A stretch of 64,000 nucleotides of DNA, taken from IMG/VR virus record IMGVR_UViG_2772190736_000001, positions 1 through 64,000 of that record. One strand, written 5' to 3'. This document shows, one piece after another, positions 43,265 to 47,235 of this stretch. Numbering within the stretch: the stretch's first letter is position 1; each line of letters begins with the position of its first letter. The notes under the pieces are model-generated. The model was not told the origin of the DNA and did not search any database. It saw only the letters and a list, made by a program, of their open reading frames with translations. Source of the stretch: a virus (Duplodnaviria; Caudoviricetes). The position numbers were made by a program, and so were the translations under genes.

Positions 43265-43545
43265 CAGGCGTGGGCTCCTGTCGTGCACGGTTCGCACAAG
43301 CAAGCGGCAGCCGCGGCAGCCTTGGTGTGTCGCCATATGGCGTACAGCTTGATGGCGGCCTCATCGGCTCCTCCACCCTCTACCTTCTCGCCCAAGGCGA
43401 TGCCGACCGCCCCCTTCAAGCCGATCAGTTCGCCTCGAATCTGTTCGCCTTGGAGGAAGGTGAGGTTCGCAGCCTGGTTGTCGAAGTGGCTCTGCCGTCG
43501 GTGGTACTCGCGCAGGAGCGCCCGGGCGGTAGGCGGGATACGCAT
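43264..43545 (-). CDS. Hypothetical protein
   Basis: GGAGG RBS; TGATG overlap with upstream gene. Confidence 0.55.
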   Translation of the reverse strand: MRIPPTARALLREYHRRQSHFDNQAANLTFLQGEQIRGELIGLKGAVGIALGEKVEGGGADEAAIKLYAIWRHTKAAAAAACLCEPCTTGAHA

Positions 43546-45374
43546 CAGAAGGGTCCTCCGAAGGCGTAGTCGGGGCGGGAGATGATGTCGGGCCGGGGCC
43601 GGAACTCTCTGCGGCAGTTCGGGTGCGCGACGGGGTGGGCGAGCGCGTCCTGGACGGTGCGCAGGGTGCCGGCGGCCCGGTCGTCATCGTCGTGCGAGGT
43701 CCAGCCGCAATTCGCTACGATGATTCCATCAACGGTGAAGGTGCCACCGCTTGTTGTCGCGTCGTAGACCCATCCCTCGTAATGCTCTACGTCGACTGAC
43801 ACCACCTGCGAAAGGGTGAACCTGTGGGGAAGCTGGACAGTCGCAAGGACAGCGTCGTCGTCAGCTGTGAGACCTGTGGCACGTCGTTCCAGCCGCTCTA
43901 CAACAGCGCGGCCCGGTTCTGCGGGCAGGCATGCTCGAGGTCCGGCAGTATCCGGCTCCCCCGTGAGGAGATACGCCGCCTCTACGTCGAAGACGGACGC
44001 CAGCCGGGCGAGATCGCTGATGTCCTCGGCCTTCGCGTGTCCCAGGTCTATACAGCCGTCAAGCGCATGGGTATCTCCCGAAGCCGCTCTGAAGCTCTGT
44101 CGCTGTGGCATGCGAACGCCGGGGCCGGCGCCAGGGAAGAACGTGCCAAGGCAGCCCACGACGCCAAGCGCGGACGCCCCTCCAAGCCCGAGAGCTTCGT
44201 CAGAAGCGCTATCACCAAGCAGTCCATCGCTTCGATCATCGGACCGCATGAGGTCAGATTTGCCGAGATGCTGCGAGCCAGAGGCGTCGGATACTCCCAG
44301 CAAACTCCGCTGGACGTCTACAACATCGACTTCACCCTGACCGAATACCCCGTCGCCGTGGAGATCGTCACCGGTGGCGGTTCGAACGGATACTGGCAGC
44401 GCCTTCACAAGCGACGCATACACGTCCTCCACCATTGGCACCTGTTTGAGATCAAGTTCCGCAAGGGCCGCCGAGTCCTCACAGAGCCCGTCGTGGACAA
44501 GCTGATCGCCTTCGCGGAGAAGGTGAGCGCGGACCCAACCCCGTACGGTCAGTACGGGATGGTTTGGCCCAACGGTGAAGACATCCGTACCAACGCTCGT
44601 ACGCCGCGCTATGCGGTAGGCCGGCCCTGAGAACCAGGCTCTGACCATCTGCTTCAGGTGTCCATGCGGAAGGAACGCGCCTCCAGGCATCACGCACTCG
44701 GGCCCGTCGCGGACTTCGACCCAGTCGGCGCCGACTTCGTCCGCGCAGGTGCGGAGGAAGCCGGTGTTCGCGGTGGTGTAGGTCTGCCAGGAGGTGGCCG
44801 CGCGGGCCCAGGATTCGACGGGGTGGCGGGAGGAGCCGGCGTAGATGACGGTGTCGAGCGGGTGGTCCTGGAGGAGGCGGGCGCGTCCGGGCCATGGCTG
44901 GCGGATGCGGTCGACGTGGCCGCGGGCGGCGGTCAGGGCGTCGCGGAGGAACGCGCGGGCTCGGCGTACGGCTTCACGGATCCGGCCGGTGAGGTCGGCG
45001 TAGTACTGCGCGGACAGGGTGGTGATGTGGGCCTGGTGTCGTGCGGTCCAGGACCATCGGGAGGGGCGGCCGGCGCGGTCCAGGGCGGCGAGGGCACCTT
45101 CCCGGTAGGCGATGGGCAGGTCGGTGGCGGCCCAGCGCTCGACGAGCGCGAGGGCGGCGCGGTCGAAGGCGGCGATCTGCTGCTGGAACGCCTCGCCTGC
45201 GGTACGGATCGCGGCGTAGGCGGTGCGGCCGGGCCGGATGCGGGCGAGGGCGGTGAGGAGCGTGTTCTGGGCGCGGGTGAGGATCCGCCAGGCGGCCGCG
45301 AGGGCGTCGGTGGCACCGATGATGAGGGCCAGGAGCCGGGCCCGTAGGGAGCGGCGGCGTACGGGGGTGGTCAT
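43545..45374 (-). CDS. Minor head protein (MuF/SPP1 gp7-like), intein-containing; about 280 aa after splicing
   Basis: VEVRDGPE|CGW...HPNCRR motif restored when the 329-aa insert is removed; located in head module. Confidence 0.8.
   Translation of the reverse strand: MTTPVRRRSLRARLLALIIGATDALAAAWRILTRAQNTLLTALARIRPGRTAYAAIRTAGEAFQQQIAAFDRAALALVERWAATDLPIAYREGALAALDRAGRPSRWSWTARHQAHITTLSAQYYADLTGRIREAVRRARAFLRDALTAARGHVDRIRQPWPGRARLLQDHPLDTVIYAGSSRHPVESWARAATSWQTYTTANTGFLRTCADEVGADWVEVRDGPECVMPGGAFLPHGHLKQMVRAWFSGPAYRIARRTSVGTDVFTVGPNHPVLTVRGWVRAHLLREGDQLVHDGLCEDSAALAELDLKQVPMVEDVYASLVKALPVSVRTATGDDLHGDGVFGQGEVDVVDVQRSLLGVSDASGSQHLGKSDLMRSDDRSDGLLGDSASDEALGLGGASALGVVGCLGTFFPGAGPGVRMPQRQSFRAASGDTHALDGCIDLGHAKAEDISDLARLASVFDVEAAYLLTGEPDTAGPRACLPAEPGRAVVERLERRATGLTADDDAVLATVQLPHRFTLSQVVSVDVEHYEGWVYDATTSGGTFTVDGIIVANCGWTSHDDDDRAAGTLRTVQDALAHPVAHPNCRREFRPRPDIISRPDYAFGGPF
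43710..44696 (-). mobile_element. Intein (329 aa)
   Basis: Cys1 (CVMPG), block B TVGPNHPVLT.RGW, block F YEGWVYDATT, block G IIVAN followed by Cys+1. Confidence 0.85.
43824..44630 (+). CDS. Putative homing endonuclease (Zn finger + HTH + Vsr/DUF559-like nuclease) encoded antisense within the intein
   Basis: CETCG..F......RFCGQAC; EIRRLY..G....EIA..LG; E..F...L...G....Q......IDF......AVEI; GC3 bias on + strand; AAAGGG before GTG. Confidence 0.75.
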   Translation: MGKLDSRKDSVVVSCETCGTSFQPLYNSAARFCGQACSRSGSIRLPREEIRRLYVEDGRQPGEIADVLGLRVSQVYTAVKRMGISRSRSEALSLWHANAGAGAREERAKAAHDAKRGRPSKPESFVRSAITKQSIASIIGPHEVRFAEMLRARGVGYSQQTPLDVYNIDFTLTEYPVAVEIVTGGGSNGYWQRLHKRRIHVLHHWHLFEIKFRKGRRVLTEPVVDKLIAFAEKVSADPTPYGQYGMVWPNGEDIRTNARTPRYAVGRP

Positions 45375-45700
45375 CGGCGGGGCCGTGCGACGAGCTGGAT
45401 GACGCCGAGGCCGTCCGGGGTGCTGGTGGCGGGGTCGTCGGGTGCTGGGGGTTCGCCGTTCTCGAGCTGGGCGATCTGTCGTTCGATCGCGCGGACGTTC
45501 TCGGTGTAGGAGAGGGCGACGACGCCGGTCACGTTGATGGTGGTCGGCTGGTCGTGGACGAGGGCCGCGAGCCGCTCGCGGAGGACTTCGAGGGCGACGG
45601 CGCGCGCGGTGCCGAGGCGGGCGTAGCGGGTGTCGAGGTCGGCGGGGTCGGTGCTGGTGCCGAGCTGCGAGATGAGCCAGGCGCGTGTCGCGACGTCCAT
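45371..45700 (-). CDS. Head-tail adaptor-like protein
   Basis: Position after capsid genes; GGAGAG RBS. Confidence 0.65.
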   Translation of the reverse strand: MDVATRAWLISQLGTSTDPADLDTRYARLGTARAVALEVLRERLAALVHDQPTTINVTGVVALSYTENVRAIERQIAQLENGEPPAPDDPATSTPDGLGVIQLVARPRR

Positions 45701-45742
45701 GCGGCTCTCCTCCGGTGGTGGTGTGGGTGGGAAGGGGTGCGG

Positions 45743-45788
45743 GTACGGGCCCGGCTCCTGGCGCCCCCACCGGGGGCCGGGCCCGTAC
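45743..45788 (-). terminator. Hairpin terminator after capsid cluster
   Basis: GTACGGGCCCGGC...GCCGGGCCCGTAC. Confidence 0.6.
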
Positions 45789-45792
45789 GCGC

Positions 45793-46167
45793 TTACTGAC
45801 CGCCGGTGCCCTCGGCGGCGGTCTCGGCCGGCTTCTTCGCGGCCGTCTTCTTGGCCGCGGTGCGCGCGGCCGGCTTGTCCTCGGCGGCGGCCCCGGTGGG
45901 GTCAGCGTTGCCGGAGTCGGGTCCCGATCCGTCGCCAGAGGCGTCGTCCGGGTCGTCGCCGGAAGGGCTGCTGTCGCCCTCCGGGTCCTTGTCGGTCTCG
46001 GTCTTGGTCGGGGTCTTCAGGCGGGGCATCTTGCCGTCGACCCAGGCGGCCGGGTTCGTCACCAGGGCCGCGAGGCGCGGCTCCGGCAGCGTTCCCAGGG
46101 CAAGCTCGACCGTCTGGTGGGTGTCCGGGTCCTTCACGAACACCGTGCTGCGCAGCTGGTAGCCCAT
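45793..46167 (-). CDS. Hypothetical capsid-adjacent protein
   Basis: LVTNP..W; low-complexity AAKK tail. Confidence 0.65.
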   Translation of the reverse strand: MGYQLRSTVFVKDPDTHQTVELALGTLPEPRLAALVTNPAAWVDGKMPRLKTPTKTETDKDPEGDSSPSGDDPDDASGDGSGPDSGNADPTGAAAEDKPAARTAAKKTAAKKPAETAAEGTGGQ

Positions 46168-46170
46168 GGG

Positions 46171-47235
46171 TCACCACACCGTCGCGGCGATGTGGATGTC
46201 GGGGGTGTACATGACCGGCATCGCGGCCGCGTTGCACTTCGTCCACACCTGAACCGGGTCGTCCTGGTAGCCGGAGGTGACGATGATGCCCGGTGCGACC
46301 TCGGCCTCGATGGACGGGTTGCCGCCGGAGGACAGGACGATGCCTTCGGCGGTGAGCCCGTACTGGGTCTCGGCCATCTGCCGGGTGTTCGGCGGCAGGA
46401 GGAAGAACATGTTCTCCGGCAGGGGCCGCTTGTTGGTGCCGTCGTCCAGGGGGACCTGCACGTCGTAAACGGTGATCGGCGGCAGTCCGTACCGGCCGCG
46501 GACGACGTTGACCTGGTCGGGCGCGAGGACGGACGTCGGGATGGTGGACGCGGAGTTCACCGAGCCGTAGTAGGCGGCGCGGTAGGAGTCGTTGCCCATG
46601 GCGAGCGCCATCGTCTTGTACGAGGTGAGGGCACGGGAGGGCATCGGGGCGCCAGACTTGCGGAGGACCTCGATCCAGGCCATCTCGTCCGCGAGCATGT
46701 CGGCGGTCGGGTCGGTCCAGACGGTGGCCGCGGTCGGCATGTTCGCCGCAGGGACCTTGTGGTCGGCCTCCAGGGTGAGACCGTTCTCGCCGGTGAGGGT
46801 GAACTTGCCGTCGACGAGGAGGTCGCCAGCCGCCAGTTCCATGCGGTTCTGGATCGACAGGACGTGGGCGGCGACGTCGTCGTAGATGGCGCTGACGAGG
46901 TCCTCACCGTCCATGCCGCGGGAGACGTTCTGCAGGATCGTCTCGAGCTCGCCGACGATGTACTTCTGGCCGAGAGGCAGGAGCTTGCCCTCGGTCACGA
47001 CGCTCGTGATCTCACGGGACGCGACCTTGGTCTGGGCGTCCCACGCGCGGTAGGACGCGGCGGCGACCCGACGGCGGGTGGAGCGGGTCTGCCACTTCAC
47101 CGAGTTGACCGTGCGCTCGGGGATGACGGACTGGGTGAGCTCGTAGTCGGCCGGGGTCTGGATCTCGCGGACGAACGCGTTGATCTCGGTCGGGTTGATG
47201 CCCCGCAGGAGGACCTCAAGCATGTCGTTAGGCAT
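46171..47235 (-). CDS. Major capsid protein (lambda gpE-like)
   Basis: I..RME...G..L..GK, W.D...D...D, DDPVQVW....A..MPV. Confidence 0.88.
   Translation of the reverse strand: MPNDMLEVLLRGINPTEINAFVREIQTPADYELTQSVIPERTVNSVKWQTRSTRRRVAAASYRAWDAQTKVASREITSVVTEGKLLPLGQKYIVGELETILQNVSRGMDGEDLVSAIYDDVAAHVLSIQNRMELAAGDLLVDGKFTLTGENGLTLEADHKVPAANMPTAATVWTDPTADMLADEMAWIEVLRKSGAPMPSRALTSYKTMALAMGNDSYRAAYYGSVNSASTIPTSVLAPDQVNVVRGRYGLPPITVYDVQVPLDDGTNKRPLPENMFFLLPPNTRQMAETQYGLTAEGIVLSSGGNPSIEAEVAPGIIVTSGYQDDPVQVWTKCNAAAMPVMYTPDIHIAATVW

What the first reader, a model, noticed from the sequence alone, without database searches (positions are those of the whole stretch)
43545..45374. Intein carrying its putative homing endonuclease on the antisense strand (fully dual-coded selfish element)
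Seen: the MuF-like head gene has a 987-nt in-frame insert (44696-43710) with intein blocks A, B, F, G and Cys+1. Removing it restores DGPE-CGW...HPNCRR. The intein centre has no LAGLIDADG or HNH motif and reads like antisense translation. The opposite strand holds a 268-aa ORF (43824-44630) with its own RBS-like sequence, GC-rich third positions, a CxxC...FCxxxC finger, an HTH and a Vsr/DUF559-like nuclease segment. The two frames are codon-aligned, and the 3' end of the + ORF overlaps conserved block B. Established: intein endonucleases are normally fused in frame on the same strand. Inference: an endonuclease gene invaded a mini-intein in inverted orientation, tolerated because in-register antisense frames stay open in high-GC DNA. 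This would separate nuclease expression from late structural gene expression.
Basis: partly seen in the sequence, partly recalled or inferred. Interest (0 to 1): 0.92.

Follow-up and report, generated by a model that had tools for sequence, protein, structure and literature searches.

The report
Intein with antisense-encoded homing endonuclease
A self-splicing protein insert (intein) in a head-region gene of a Streptomyces phage carries its DNA-cutting homing enzyme on the opposite DNA strand; the arrangement is real, was first described for phage inteins in a 2025 preprint, and appears to be common in phages.

Summary
The - strand gene 45374..43545 holds a 329-codon in-frame insert (44696..43710). 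It has Cys1, a block-B His, terminal Asn and Cys+1. Streptomyces phage ZL12 has the same gene without the insert. The + ORF 43824..44630 (268 aa) lies inside the insert, codon-aligned with it. Its model has a Vsr/I-Bth0305I-like nuclease fold (VIA Z 11.0 and 9.2), an HTH and a CxxC..CxxxC finger.

Selection switches strand along the element. In the centre the + frame is constrained (omega 0.28-0.44) and the - frame is not (1.1-1.2). At the splicing-domain ends the reverse holds.

The same arrangement is present in 100 of 100 related loci examined, at 41-67% GC. These include Salmonella, Klebsiella, Vibrio, Pseudomonas, Gordonia and Rhodococcus phages.

High GC does not explain the open antisense frame across the family. 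The "MuF" label for this host gene is weak.

The architecture is not new. A 2025 bioRxiv preprint (10.1101/2025.01.02.630785) reports antisense VSR-like endonucleases in minor-capsid inteins of actinobacteriophages. It cites antisense LAGLIDADG cases from 1998 and 2002. This element is a new member of that kind. Splicing, cleavage and expression are untested.

The parts
43545..45374 (-). Host gene precursor (609 aa plus stop). It is a head-region gene of family phrog_37388 that carries the intein. The start at 45374 matches the start of the ZL12 homologue (MTTPVRRRSLRARLL vs MSTPTRRRTLRARLL).
   Evidence: (phrog_37388 E 8e-90). Major head protein (phrog_29) lies upstream at 47235..46171.
44697..45374 (-). 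N-extein (226 aa), ending ...VEVRDGPE.
   Evidence: (58.7% identical to ZL12).
43710..44696 (-). Intein, 329 aa, with Cys1 ... Asn329, followed by Cys+1.
44478..44696 (-). N-terminal splicing (HINT) part, intein residues 1-73 (blocks A and B; GPNHPVLT). The - frame is under purifying selection here.
   Evidence: pLDDT 58-78, beta strands. (window-L006: - omega 0.14, + omega 1.59)..
43824..44477 (-). Intein centre, residues 74-291. It is translated as a linker without confident fold. Its sequence is set by the + strand gene.
   Evidence: pLDDT below 50. (- omega 1.10-1.21, + omega 0.28-0.44).
43710..43823 (-). C-terminal splicing part, residues 292-329 (blocks F and G; GWVYDATT...IIVAN).
   Evidence: (window-L007: - omega 0.24, + omega 2.04).
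43545..43709 (-). C-extein (54 aa plus stop), CGWTSHDD...HPNCRREF...
43824..44630 (+). Antisense endonuclease gene, 268 aa, GTG start, TGA stop.
43810..43816 (+). Shine-Dalgarno-like GAAAGGG, 7 nt before the GTG start.
   Evidence: read from the sequence; function not shown.
43866..43934 (+). CxxC-(14)-CxxxC zinc-finger-like module (residues 15-37).
   Evidence: 7 of 7 close homologues. (weak matches, E 0.002-0.06, to ends of PHROG 'HNH endonuclease' families). Model confidence is low here.
43959..44171 (+). Helical HTH-type DNA-binding region (residues 46-116).
   Evidence: helices 47-116, pLDDT 70-86.. (Z 4.5-5.0 to HTH domains). Pfam HTH_29 E 0.038 is below cutoff.
44211..44609 (+). Vsr-like / PD-(D/E)xK-type nuclease domain (residues 130-262). 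Family-invariant residues are E143, Y166, N167, D169, E180 and R197.
   Evidence: 1cw0_A Z 11.0, 1vsr 10.4, 3hrl 9.5, 3r3p_A 9.2.. (3hrl E 2.5e-5, 3r3p E 2.6e-4)..

Best explanation
This is a composite selfish element: a class-1-type intein plus a separate homing-endonuclease gene, written on the two strands of the same 987 bp.

The - strand is translated as part of the head-region protein. The first ~73 and last ~38 intein residues form the HINT splicing domain. The ~218 residues between them are a tolerated, unstructured linker. The intein then excises itself (Cys1, Asn329, Cys+1) and restores ...DGPE-CGW....

The + strand of that linker region encodes a 268-aa zinc-finger, HTH and Vsr-like nuclease protein with its own start codon and ribosome-binding site. 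This protein is inferred to cut intein-less alleles of the host gene near the DGxx|CGW codons, as in phage ZL12. Repair would then copy the intein and endonuclease together into the cut allele.

Because the two frames are codon-aligned, the endonuclease gene only has to avoid the codons TTA, CTA and TCA to keep the intein frame open.

Shown here: the anatomy, the folds, the empty allele, the strand-specific constraint, and conservation of the arrangement. Inferred: splicing, cleavage, target site, expression and its timing.
For: Insert and empty allele.

HINT identity. A profile of 9 relatives hits only inteins at the top of the PDB list: NrdJ-1 4.5e-6, PI-MtuI 1.8e-4, MJ0781 5.9e-4. Pfam Intein_splicing hits 5 of 9 members. 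In the AF2 model the ends are beta-rich at pLDDT 58-78 and the centre (residues 74-291) is below 50.

Endonuclease. The AF2 model has mean pLDDT 67. The three best Foldseek hits are Vsr (two entries) and I-Bth0305I (E 7e-3 to 5e-2). VIA gives Z 11.0, 10.4, 9.5 and 9.2 to 1cw0_A, 1vsr, 3hrl and 3r3p_A. Profile hits are 3hrl 2.5e-5 and 3r3p 2.6e-4. D169 aligns with the essential Asp196 of I-Bth0305I, which is Ala in the crystal (PMC3239194 passages).

Selection (Nei-Gojobori), window clade, 3 pairs. Centre: + omega 0.28-0.44, - omega 1.10-1.21. N-HINT: - omega 0.14-0.28, + omega 0.94-1.59. The same switch appears in three other groups (Jerseyvirus, short Ala1 inteins, L013 group).

Comparison of the window with Salmonella phage BPS11Q3. 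The + frame scores 81.6 bits over 248 aa. The - frame scores 56.2 bits over 116 aa only.

Conservation. Both frames are open and codon-aligned in 20 of 20 loci and in 80 of 80 further IMG/VR loci. N-HINT hits occur in 80 of 80 of the latter and C-HINT hits in 73 of 80. Over 51 lineages, 211.5 stop-making codons are expected and 0 are seen.

The same architecture is described independently in 10.1101/2025.01.02.630785 (abstract, sections 8 and 15). That preprint names phage REQ3, whose antisense ORF is 41.6% identical to residues 129-251 of the window's protein.
Against: No experiment or expression data supports it. No listed sequencing run holds the stretch as RNA (uninformative). No sigma-70-like promoter was found for the + ORF.

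The window's intein scores below Pfam's gathering cutoff (20.6 vs 35.8 bits). It has Gly where block B usually has Thr, and Ala where the penultimate residue is usually His (the usual residues are recalled), so splicing efficiency is uncertain.

The 'GG(G)WH' histidine is present in the large subfamily. It corresponds to the general-base His213 of I-Bth0305I and His69 of Vsr (PMC3239194). It is not evident in the window's clade, so the catalytic mechanism or activity may differ.

Foldseek E-values are weak (above 1e-3), and the + model is poor for residues 1-42 and 115-138.

Shared ancestry means the 100 loci are not independent events. The omega values in overlapping frames are confounded and are meaningful only as a contrast between frames.
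Confidence: 0.85

Rival explanations
1. The dual coding is real, but in this window the endonuclease is a catalytically disabled or decaying remnant. On this reading the element is inherited vertically in this phage-plasmid lineage and is no longer homing.
For: The window's clade lacks the conserved GG(G)WH histidine of the large subfamily (role of the His from PMC3239194 passages). Few close relatives were found: 5 full-length proteins, 1 genome locus and 1 viral contig. The preprint says most VSR-like cases look vertically inherited (section 15).
Against: The + frame in the centre is under purifying selection in all 3 pairs of the clade (omega 0.28-0.44, dS about 1.0), while the - frame is not. 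The family-invariant residues E143, D169, E180 and R197 are kept. An intein-less allele exists in a related phage (ZL12), so targets are available.
Confidence: 0.15
2. The + ORF protein is functional but has been recruited for something other than homing. Possibilities are a DNA-binding regulator, or a nuclease acting on competing phages or on host DNA.
For: It has its own start codon and ribosome-binding site. It carries a three-module DNA-binding and nuclease architecture. It is kept under selection in a lineage where spread is not demonstrated.
Against: Every relative examined sits inside an intein at a conserved catalytic-type site of a head gene (100 of 100). That pattern is expected for a homing enzyme. 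No free-standing copy was seen, and the genome holds only this one copy.
Confidence: 0.08
3. The head-region gene is dead. On this reading a free-standing endonuclease gene, or an intein that no longer splices, disrupted it, and the - frame stays open only because of high GC.
For: In the window alone the chance of an open in-register antisense frame is about 0.3-0.4. The block B and penultimate residues are non-canonical.
Against: The HINT ends evolve under purifying selection in the - frame (omega 0.14-0.28 for N-HINT in the 3 pairs). Cys1, Asn329 and Cys+1 are kept in window, L006 and L007. The insert is exactly in frame, with exteins matching the ZL12 allele on both sides.
Confidence: 0.04
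4. The + ORF is a spurious antisense ORF. On this reading the real endonuclease domain, if any, is the in-frame centre of the intein on the - strand.
For: Long antisense ORFs are common in high-GC DNA (many are listed).
Against: The - frame centre has no Pfam domain and no confident fold, and it evolves at omega about 1.1-1.2. The + frame folds as a Vsr-like nuclease. It is conserved down to 25-30% identity in phages of Proteobacteria at about 50% GC. It also has the gene-like GC3 (0.78 vs 0.62).
Confidence: 0.02

Closest known systems
Inteins with an anti-sense VSR-like homing endonuclease in actinobacteriophage minor capsid proteins (Gosselin, Arsenault and Gogarten, bioRxiv 10.1101/2025.01.02.630785; I read the abstract, sections 8 and 15, and passages)
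   Same: The architecture is the same: a full intein in a phage head or minor-capsid gene, an unstructured in-frame centre, and a VSR-like (EDxHD-like by HHpred to 3R3P) endonuclease ORF on the antisense strand. Phage REQ3, named there, carries an antisense ORF 41.6% identical to the window's nuclease domain.
   Different: The window's intein is 329 aa, starts with Cys, and sits at DGPE|CGW in a phrog_37388 gene of a ZL12-like Streptomyces phage. REQ3 and most relatives sit at the HPN|C(R/G)C-type site of MuF or minor capsid 2 genes. The window's endonuclease has an extra N-terminal zinc finger. The preprint surveyed PhagesDB only and calls these architectures rare. Its main text does not mention Streptomyces or Salmonella. 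Its supplementary tables could not be seen.
Antisense LAGLIDADG endonucleases in inteins (Synechocystis DnaX, Chloroflexus SpoVR-like). These are cited in the preprint to Gorbalenya 1998 and Gogarten 2002, which I did not read.
   Same: The endonuclease gene is on the strand opposite to the intein frame.
   Different: The nuclease family (LAGLIDADG), the hosts and the exteins all differ.
Cyanobacterial dnaX intein with out-of-frame LAGLIDADG endonuclease (bioRxiv 10.64898/2026.09.14.751524; abstract and passages)
   Same: It has overlapping reading frames with frame-dependent dN/dS: low in the endonuclease frame and high in the intein frame over the overlap. It carries the same 'secondary invasion of a mini-intein' hypothesis.
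   Different: Its text calls the endonuclease frame a '+2 ORF' and never uses 'antisense', 'reverse' or 'opposite strand'. The nuclease is LAGLIDADG and the gene is cellular.
Fractured genes: split inteins with a free-standing Vsr-like or GIY-YIG endonuclease gene between the halves (Dassa et al. 2009, PMC2677866; passages)
   Same: A Vsr-like endonuclease gene lies inside an intein locus as a separate ORF with its own signals. The best PDB sequence match of the window-family HINT profile is NrdJ-1, one of the inteins named in that paper's text.
   Different: There the intein frame is broken into two genes, and the passages describe the host gene halves as keeping the parent gene's orientation. 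Here the intein stays contiguous because the antisense frame is kept open.
I-Bth0305I, prototype of the EDxHD homing endonucleases (Taylor et al. 2011, PMC3239194; abstract and passages)
   Same: It has a bipartite design, with N-terminal DNA-binding modules including an HTH and a C-terminal Vsr-like nuclease. The fold matches (Z 9.2, 94 of 97 residues). The Glu and the essential Asp align.
   Different: I-Bth0305I is encoded in a group I intron of a phage recA gene, not in an intein and not antisense. The His and second Asp of the EDxHD motif are not evident in the window's protein.
Antisense homing endonuclease genes in nuclear group I introns (PMC9548176; title and abstract start from the search listing only)
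   Same: The endonuclease gene is on the strand opposite to the self-splicing element's host gene.
   Different: An intron is removed as RNA, so the antisense gene imposes no protein-coding constraint on the other strand. In an intein both strands must stay translatable.

Membership tests
Intein (HINT splicing domain, class 1 type) | In-frame insertion in a conserved host protein that is absent from homologous alleles | tested here: met
   The ZL12 allele reads ...VRDGNSCGWRTHDD... with no insert. The window has 329 codons between DGPE and CGW.
Intein (HINT splicing domain, class 1 type) | Nucleophile at position 1 (Cys/Ser), C-terminal Asn, and Cys/Ser/Thr at +1 | tested here: met
   Cys1, Asn329 and Cys+1 are present. 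They are also present in L006 and L007.
Intein (HINT splicing domain, class 1 type) | Block B TxxH and penultimate His (motif definitions recalled) | tested here: inconclusive
   His46 is invariant in 9 of 9 sequences. The Thr position is Gly (GPNH) in the window, and the penultimate residue is Ala.
Intein (HINT splicing domain, class 1 type) | Sequence or profile match to known intein splicing domains | tested here: met
   Pfam Intein_splicing gives E 4.1e-4 but 20.6 bits, below the cutoff of 35.8. The profile of 9 relatives hits NrdJ-1, PI-MtuI and MJ0781 inteins at 4.5e-6 to 5.9e-4. Relatives reach the Pfam cutoff in 4 of 10 sampled.
Intein (HINT splicing domain, class 1 type) | Protein splicing activity | not testable with these tools
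   Needs expression of the precursor.
Vsr-like / EDxHD homing endonucleases | Vsr-type nuclease fold | tested here: met
   VIA gives Z 11.0 (1cw0_A, 120 aligned, rmsd 3.5), 10.4 (1vsr) and 9.2 (3r3p_A, 94 aligned). The next unrelated folds score Z 6.7 or below, apart from two mitoribosomal chains at 9.2 and 8.4.
Vsr-like / EDxHD homing endonucleases | Catalytic motif residues E, D, H, D (PMC3239194) | tested here: inconclusive
   E143 and D169 align with Glu170 and Asp196, and E180 with the extra conserved acidic residue. The His213 equivalent is seen as GG(G)WH in the large subfamily but not in the window's clade. The second Asp was not located.
Vsr-like / EDxHD homing endonucleases | Site-specific cleavage of the element-free allele | not testable with these tools
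   Needs a cleavage assay.
Non-canonical inteins with antisense endonuclease (preprint 10.1101/2025.01.02.630785) | Endonuclease ORF on the opposite strand within the intein, with the in-frame centre lacking a recognisable fold | tested here: met
   The + ORF 43824..44630 lies inside 43710..44696. The centre of the - frame model is below pLDDT 50. There is homology to the REQ3 antisense ORF.
Phage MuF / minor capsid protein 2 (host gene) | Match to Pfam Phage_Mu_F (PF04233) or Phage_min_cap2 (PF06152) | tested here: not met
   No hit at E <= 10 for the window's exteins or for the intein-less ZL12 protein. The family is phrog_37388, 'unknown function'. L007, which shares the insertion site, hits PF06152 at 2e-9. 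It aligns to the window's N-extein only weakly (E 0.015).

The most novel reading that the evidence does not exclude
The HTH plus Vsr-like endonucleases related to this ORF may form a lineage that is encoded essentially only antisense, and codon-aligned, inside inteins of phage head-assembly genes. On this reading one ancient capture produced a stable dual-coded selfish element. That element has since radiated through phages of Actinobacteria and Proteobacteria. It has persisted to 25-30% protein identity. It has also moved to at least one new insertion site, DGxx|CGW in Streptomyces phage-plasmids. If so, it is common rather than a rare evolutionary dead end, and standard gene callers miss it systematically.
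Probability: 0.55. Interest if true: 0.65.

Novelty: new member of a known kind. Interest (0 to 1): 0.5.

Why it matters
An intein needs a continuous reading frame. An endonuclease gene on the other strand therefore forces true dual coding of several hundred base pairs. This window gives a clean, checkable case with a natural empty allele (phage ZL12).

The comparative data add two things to what the papers I read show. First, constraint switches strand along the element: the HINT ends are owned by one strand and the centre by the other. Second, the arrangement is kept open by selection at 41-55% GC in many phage lineages outside the actinobacteriophages.

Practically, annotation pipelines that allow one gene per locus will miss these endonucleases. 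They will also label such inteins as 'decaying' or 'mini'.

It does not open a new category. The kind was reported for phage inteins in 2025, and according to that preprint it was anticipated in 1998.

Tried and rejected
I used the search for related loci instead.
- The metagenome-contig scan with A1 confirmed no relative. The single-sequence scan of viral contigs gave only L004, a 36-residue zinc-finger match with no covering antisense frame. L004 is excluded from all counts.
- No RNA holder was listed for the stretch, and read laying was not used.
- The promoter scan found no sigma-70-like site and one terminator-like hairpin, which is at chance level.
- A search for longer, fused forms of the endonuclease found none, which is weak evidence. 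Among the 150 best of 4796 library hits, none looked like an in-frame fusion of the nuclease into a long host protein. Three long hits matched only repeated HTH units.
- Whether free-standing family members exist could not be settled, because that library has no genomic context.
- Megablast of the region against phages gave no match.
- In one search the rows for L007 and L010 were invalid, because my extein coordinates were out of frame. They were recomputed.
- In one search the boundary estimates are approximate. Some C-HINT hits fell on block B, and the printed C-terminal cut is off by one in many rows.
- A class 3 reading of the window's intein was not pursued, because it starts with Cys.
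- The split-intein reading was rejected, because there is no stop or restart in the - frame.
- Supplementary tables of the 2025 preprint (its list of VSR-like clusters 60 and 91) could not be seen. They may already include Streptomyces phages or this insertion site.


Full report
**What is there**

The window is high-GC DNA (0.66-0.79 in 300-nt windows outside the insert region). It lies on contig C27 of an 8.1-Mb, 190-contig genome.

On the - strand, downstream of a major head protein gene (phrog_29, E 6e-58), lies a gene that runs from 45374 to 43545. Its product reads ...VEVRDGPE|CVMPGG...GIIVAN|CGWTSHDD...HPNCRREF.

The 987 nt from 44696 to 43710 are an in-frame insert of 329 codons. GC drops to 0.59-0.64 there, and the GC skew changes sign.

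Streptomyces phage ZL12 (90,435 bp, circular) has the same gene without the insert. Its gene pZL12.60c (277 aa) reads ...VRDGNSCGWRTHDD...HPNCQREF, and its N-terminal part is 58.7% identical to the window's. So the insertion, its exact borders and a natural empty allele are established.

**The - strand insert is an intein**

- It has Cys1, an invariant block-B His (GPNHPVLT), a terminal Asn and Cys+1.
- Pfam Intein_splicing matches at E 4.1e-4, but below its curated cutoff (20.6 vs 35.8 bits).
- A profile of nine relatives finds inteins as its best PDB matches: NrdJ-1 4.5e-6, PI-MtuI 1.8e-4, MJ0781 5.9e-4. Five of the nine members hit the Pfam model.
- In the AlphaFold model built on that alignment, residues 7-73 and 292-329 are beta-rich at pLDDT 58-78. 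Residues 74-291 are all below 50.
- Pfam finds no LAGLIDADG or HNH domain in this frame.

**The + strand ORF is a Vsr-like endonuclease gene**

ORF 43824..44630 (268 aa) starts with GTG, 7 nt after GAAAGGG. It lies wholly inside the intein and overlaps intein residues 23-291, including block B. It is codon-aligned with the - frame.

Its relatives:
- Full-length homologues at 77, 73, 56 and 55% identity, plus two partial ones.
- A Streptomyces angustmyceticus contig (L006, 65%).
- An IMG/VR contig (L007, 53%).
- All begin at the same MGKLD.

The AlphaFold model (mean pLDDT 67) shows three parts:
- An N-terminal CxxC...CxxxC module, modelled at low confidence but conserved in 7 of 7 close homologues.
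- A helical HTH-type region.
- A C-terminal alpha/beta domain.

For that C-terminal domain, the three best Foldseek hits are E. coli Vsr (two entries) and the I-Bth0305I catalytic domain. Their E-values are weak, 7e-3 to 5e-2. VIA-align gives Z 11.0 (1cw0_A), 10.4 (1vsr), 9.5 (3hrl) and 9.2 (3r3p_A). A nuclease-domain profile hits 3hrl at 2.5e-5 and 3r3p at 2.6e-4.

In that alignment D169 falls on the essential Asp196 of I-Bth0305I, which is Ala in the crystallised mutant. E143 falls on Glu170 (PMC3239194 passages).

The residues E143, Y166, N167, D169, E180 and R197 are invariant in 14-18 diverse relatives.

One caveat applies. The GG(G)WH histidine of the larger subfamily is the counterpart of the general-base His. 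It is not evident in the window's clade.

**Which strand is selected where**

I aligned the whole intein by codon, which is valid for both frames because they are in register. I then computed Nei-Gojobori dN and dS in each frame for three zones.

| Zone (window, L006, L007; 3 pairs) | + frame omega | - frame omega |
|---|---|---|
| Centre (216-218 codons) | 0.28-0.44 (dS about 1.0) | 1.10-1.21 |
| N-terminal HINT zone | 0.94-1.59 | 0.14-0.28 |

- In the C-terminal HINT zone the - frame has the lower dN. Its dS is saturated in two of the three pairs.
- The same switch is seen in Jerseyvirus alleles. In the centre, + omega is 0.10-0.20 and - omega is 0.63-1.56.
- It is also seen in the short Ala1 inteins and in the near-identical L013/L014 pair. 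In that pair 8 of 9 central differences fall on + third positions.
- These omegas are confounded by the overlap. They are meaningful only as a contrast between frames, but the contrast is consistent.
- Between the window and Salmonella phage BPS11Q3 the + frame keeps 81.6 bits over 248 residues. The - frame keeps 56.2 bits over 116 residues: the HINT N-terminal part plus the mirror image of the nuclease motif.
- In the window's centre GC3 is 0.78 in the + frame and 0.62 in the - frame.

**Is the double open frame more than chance?**

In the window alone it is not. From the host gene's own codon usage, the chance that 329 codons contain no TTA, CTA or TCA is about 0.3-0.4. Those are the only codons that make a stop in the in-register antisense frame.

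The relatives decide the question. tblastn of the + ORF finds 103 phage records: 61 Salmonella, 14 Pseudomonas, 8 Klebsiella, 7 Gordonia, 4 Vibrio and others.

I opened 9 of them: BPS11Q3, Angelicage, RCIP0015, UPWr_S5, SaI_NFG_5577, SGP009, PvVp04_M, REQ3 and CF74b. In 9 of 9 the match lies antisense to one annotated CDS that spans it. That CDS is named head morphogenesis, MuF-like or minor capsid protein where it has a name.

Counting the window, these nine, L006 and L007-L015, both frames are open and codon-aligned in 20 of 20 loci, at GC 0.44-0.67. At about 50% GC the individual chance values are small: BPS11Q3 2e-6 to 1e-5, RCIP0015 1.5e-4 to 4e-4, L008 3e-5 to 3e-4.

**How wide is the family?**

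- A profile search of 1.84 billion representative proteins with the close homologues gave 4796 clusters at E <= 1e-3, 1811 at <= 1e-10 and 64 at <= 1e-30.
- With 25 of them as a query alignment, IMG/VR held 554 confirmed stretches, of which the tool kept the best 80. These 80 form 53 clusters at 70% identity and 17 at 50%.
- In 80 of 80 the - strand has an open frame that covers the whole match, always in register, at GC 0.41-0.67.
- An HMM of the N-terminal HINT part hits 80 of 80 of those - frames. The C-terminal HMM hits 73 of 80. The junctions mostly read HP(N/R/G)|C..LPGN and (H/K/S)N|CRC (boundaries approximate).
- Of 10 sampled - frames, 10 hit Intein_splicing (4 at or above the cutoff) and 8 hit Phage_Mu_F (7 above the cutoff). 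Two are portal-MuF fusions.
- Using N-extein codon usage in 51 of the 53 lineages, 211.5 stop-making codons are expected in the endonuclease matches and none is observed. In 19 of the 51 the individual chance is below 0.01.
- The loci share ancestry, so this shows sustained selection, not 100 independent origins.

**Insertion site and host gene**

Most relatives sit at the HPN|CRC-type site of MuF (PF04233) or minor capsid 2 (PF06152) genes. The window, L006 and L007 sit at DGxx|CGW, about 35 residues upstream of the HPxC motif.

The window's host protein is not recognised by either Pfam family. It belongs to phrog_37388, 'unknown function'. L007 hits PF06152 (2e-9) but aligns to the window's N-extein only weakly (E 0.015). 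So the 'MuF-like' label is an inference.

**What is known**

A bioRxiv preprint describes this architecture in actinobacteriophage inteins (10.1101/2025.01.02.630785; version of 20 Oct 2025). I read its abstract, sections 8 and 15, and passages.
- It reports 'anti-sense VSR-like' endonucleases, among other non-canonical types, in minor capsid and three other host proteins.
- It reports an unstructured in-frame centre and an HHpred match to 3R3P.
- It names REQ3, and it proposes invasion of an intein by a free-standing endonuclease gene.
- It cites antisense LAGLIDADG cases to Gorbalenya 1998 and Gogarten 2002, which I did not read.
- It calls these architectures rare but suspects they are under-counted.
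- Its main text mentions neither Streptomyces nor Salmonella.

A 2026 preprint (10.64898/2026.09.14.751524; abstract and passages) shows frame-dependent dN/dS for an out-of-frame LAGLIDADG gene in the dnaX intein.

Dassa et al. 2009 (PMC2677866, passages) describe Vsr-like endonuclease genes between split-intein halves. Those passages describe the host gene halves as keeping the parent gene's orientation.

My four literature searches found no paper on such inteins in phages of Proteobacteria, and none on this insertion site.

**Verdict**

The element works, most likely, as an intein plus a separately encoded antisense homing endonuclease. Splicing, cleavage and expression remain inferred.

It is a new member of a recently described kind. 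The additions here are:
- the strand-switch in constraint for this family;
- evidence that openness is selected, and is not a by-product of high GC;
- the breadth of the family outside actinobacteriophages;
- a second insertion site.

Noticed in passing
L008:907-1572, L009:2881-3543, L010:2337-2999, L011:2896-3570, L013:574-1320, L021 (REQ3): Relatives of 221-249 aa at the HPN|C site begin with Ala, not Cys (AVMAGG..., AILGDH...). They must therefore splice by a non-class-1 route. The preprint calls the REQ3 intein class 3. I did not test the class.
   Followed up: no
L081:2402-5398 and L092:2384-5383 (- strand): ORFs of about 1000 aa combine Phage_portal (E 8e-50 and 2.5e-51), Phage_Mu_F and the intein with its antisense endonuclease. 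These are portal-MuF fusion proteins that carry the element.
   Followed up: partly
L011:2098-6462 (- strand; 117.6-kb IMG/VR contig): An open frame of at least 1455 aa, cut by the locus end, carries the intein near a MuF-type HPN|CR site. It looks like a very large polyvalent head protein.
   Followed up: no
window 43600-44650: GC falls to 0.59-0.64, against 0.72-0.76 further out on either side. The GC skew changes sign exactly over the antisense gene. This simple compositional flag could be used to find such elements.
   Followed up: partly
window 43545-47235 and L016 (phage ZL12): The gene order is major head protein, two small ORFs, then the host gene. It matches ZL12 genes 63c-60c. The protein's longest contig is 90,633 bp, close to ZL12's 90,435-bp circular genome. 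The window therefore probably belongs to a ZL12-like phage-plasmid.
   Followed up: partly
window 45371-45374: The host gene's ATG overlaps the stop of the upstream 109-aa ORF (45700..45371) in an ATGA arrangement, which suggests translational coupling.
   Followed up: no
phage records H38/H39 (vB_StyS-sam) and H60 (PK1): Under the match these records list 'head morphogenesis protein | hypothetical protein (x2)'. Some annotators may therefore already have called ORFs inside the intein. I did not open these records.
   Followed up: no
(alignments A5, A6): The large subfamily keeps a GG(G)WH..G.H motif after the VAVE strand. The window's clade (TGGGSNGYWQRLH) and the short Ala1 clade do not. This is a possible difference in catalytic residues within the family.
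   Followed up: partly
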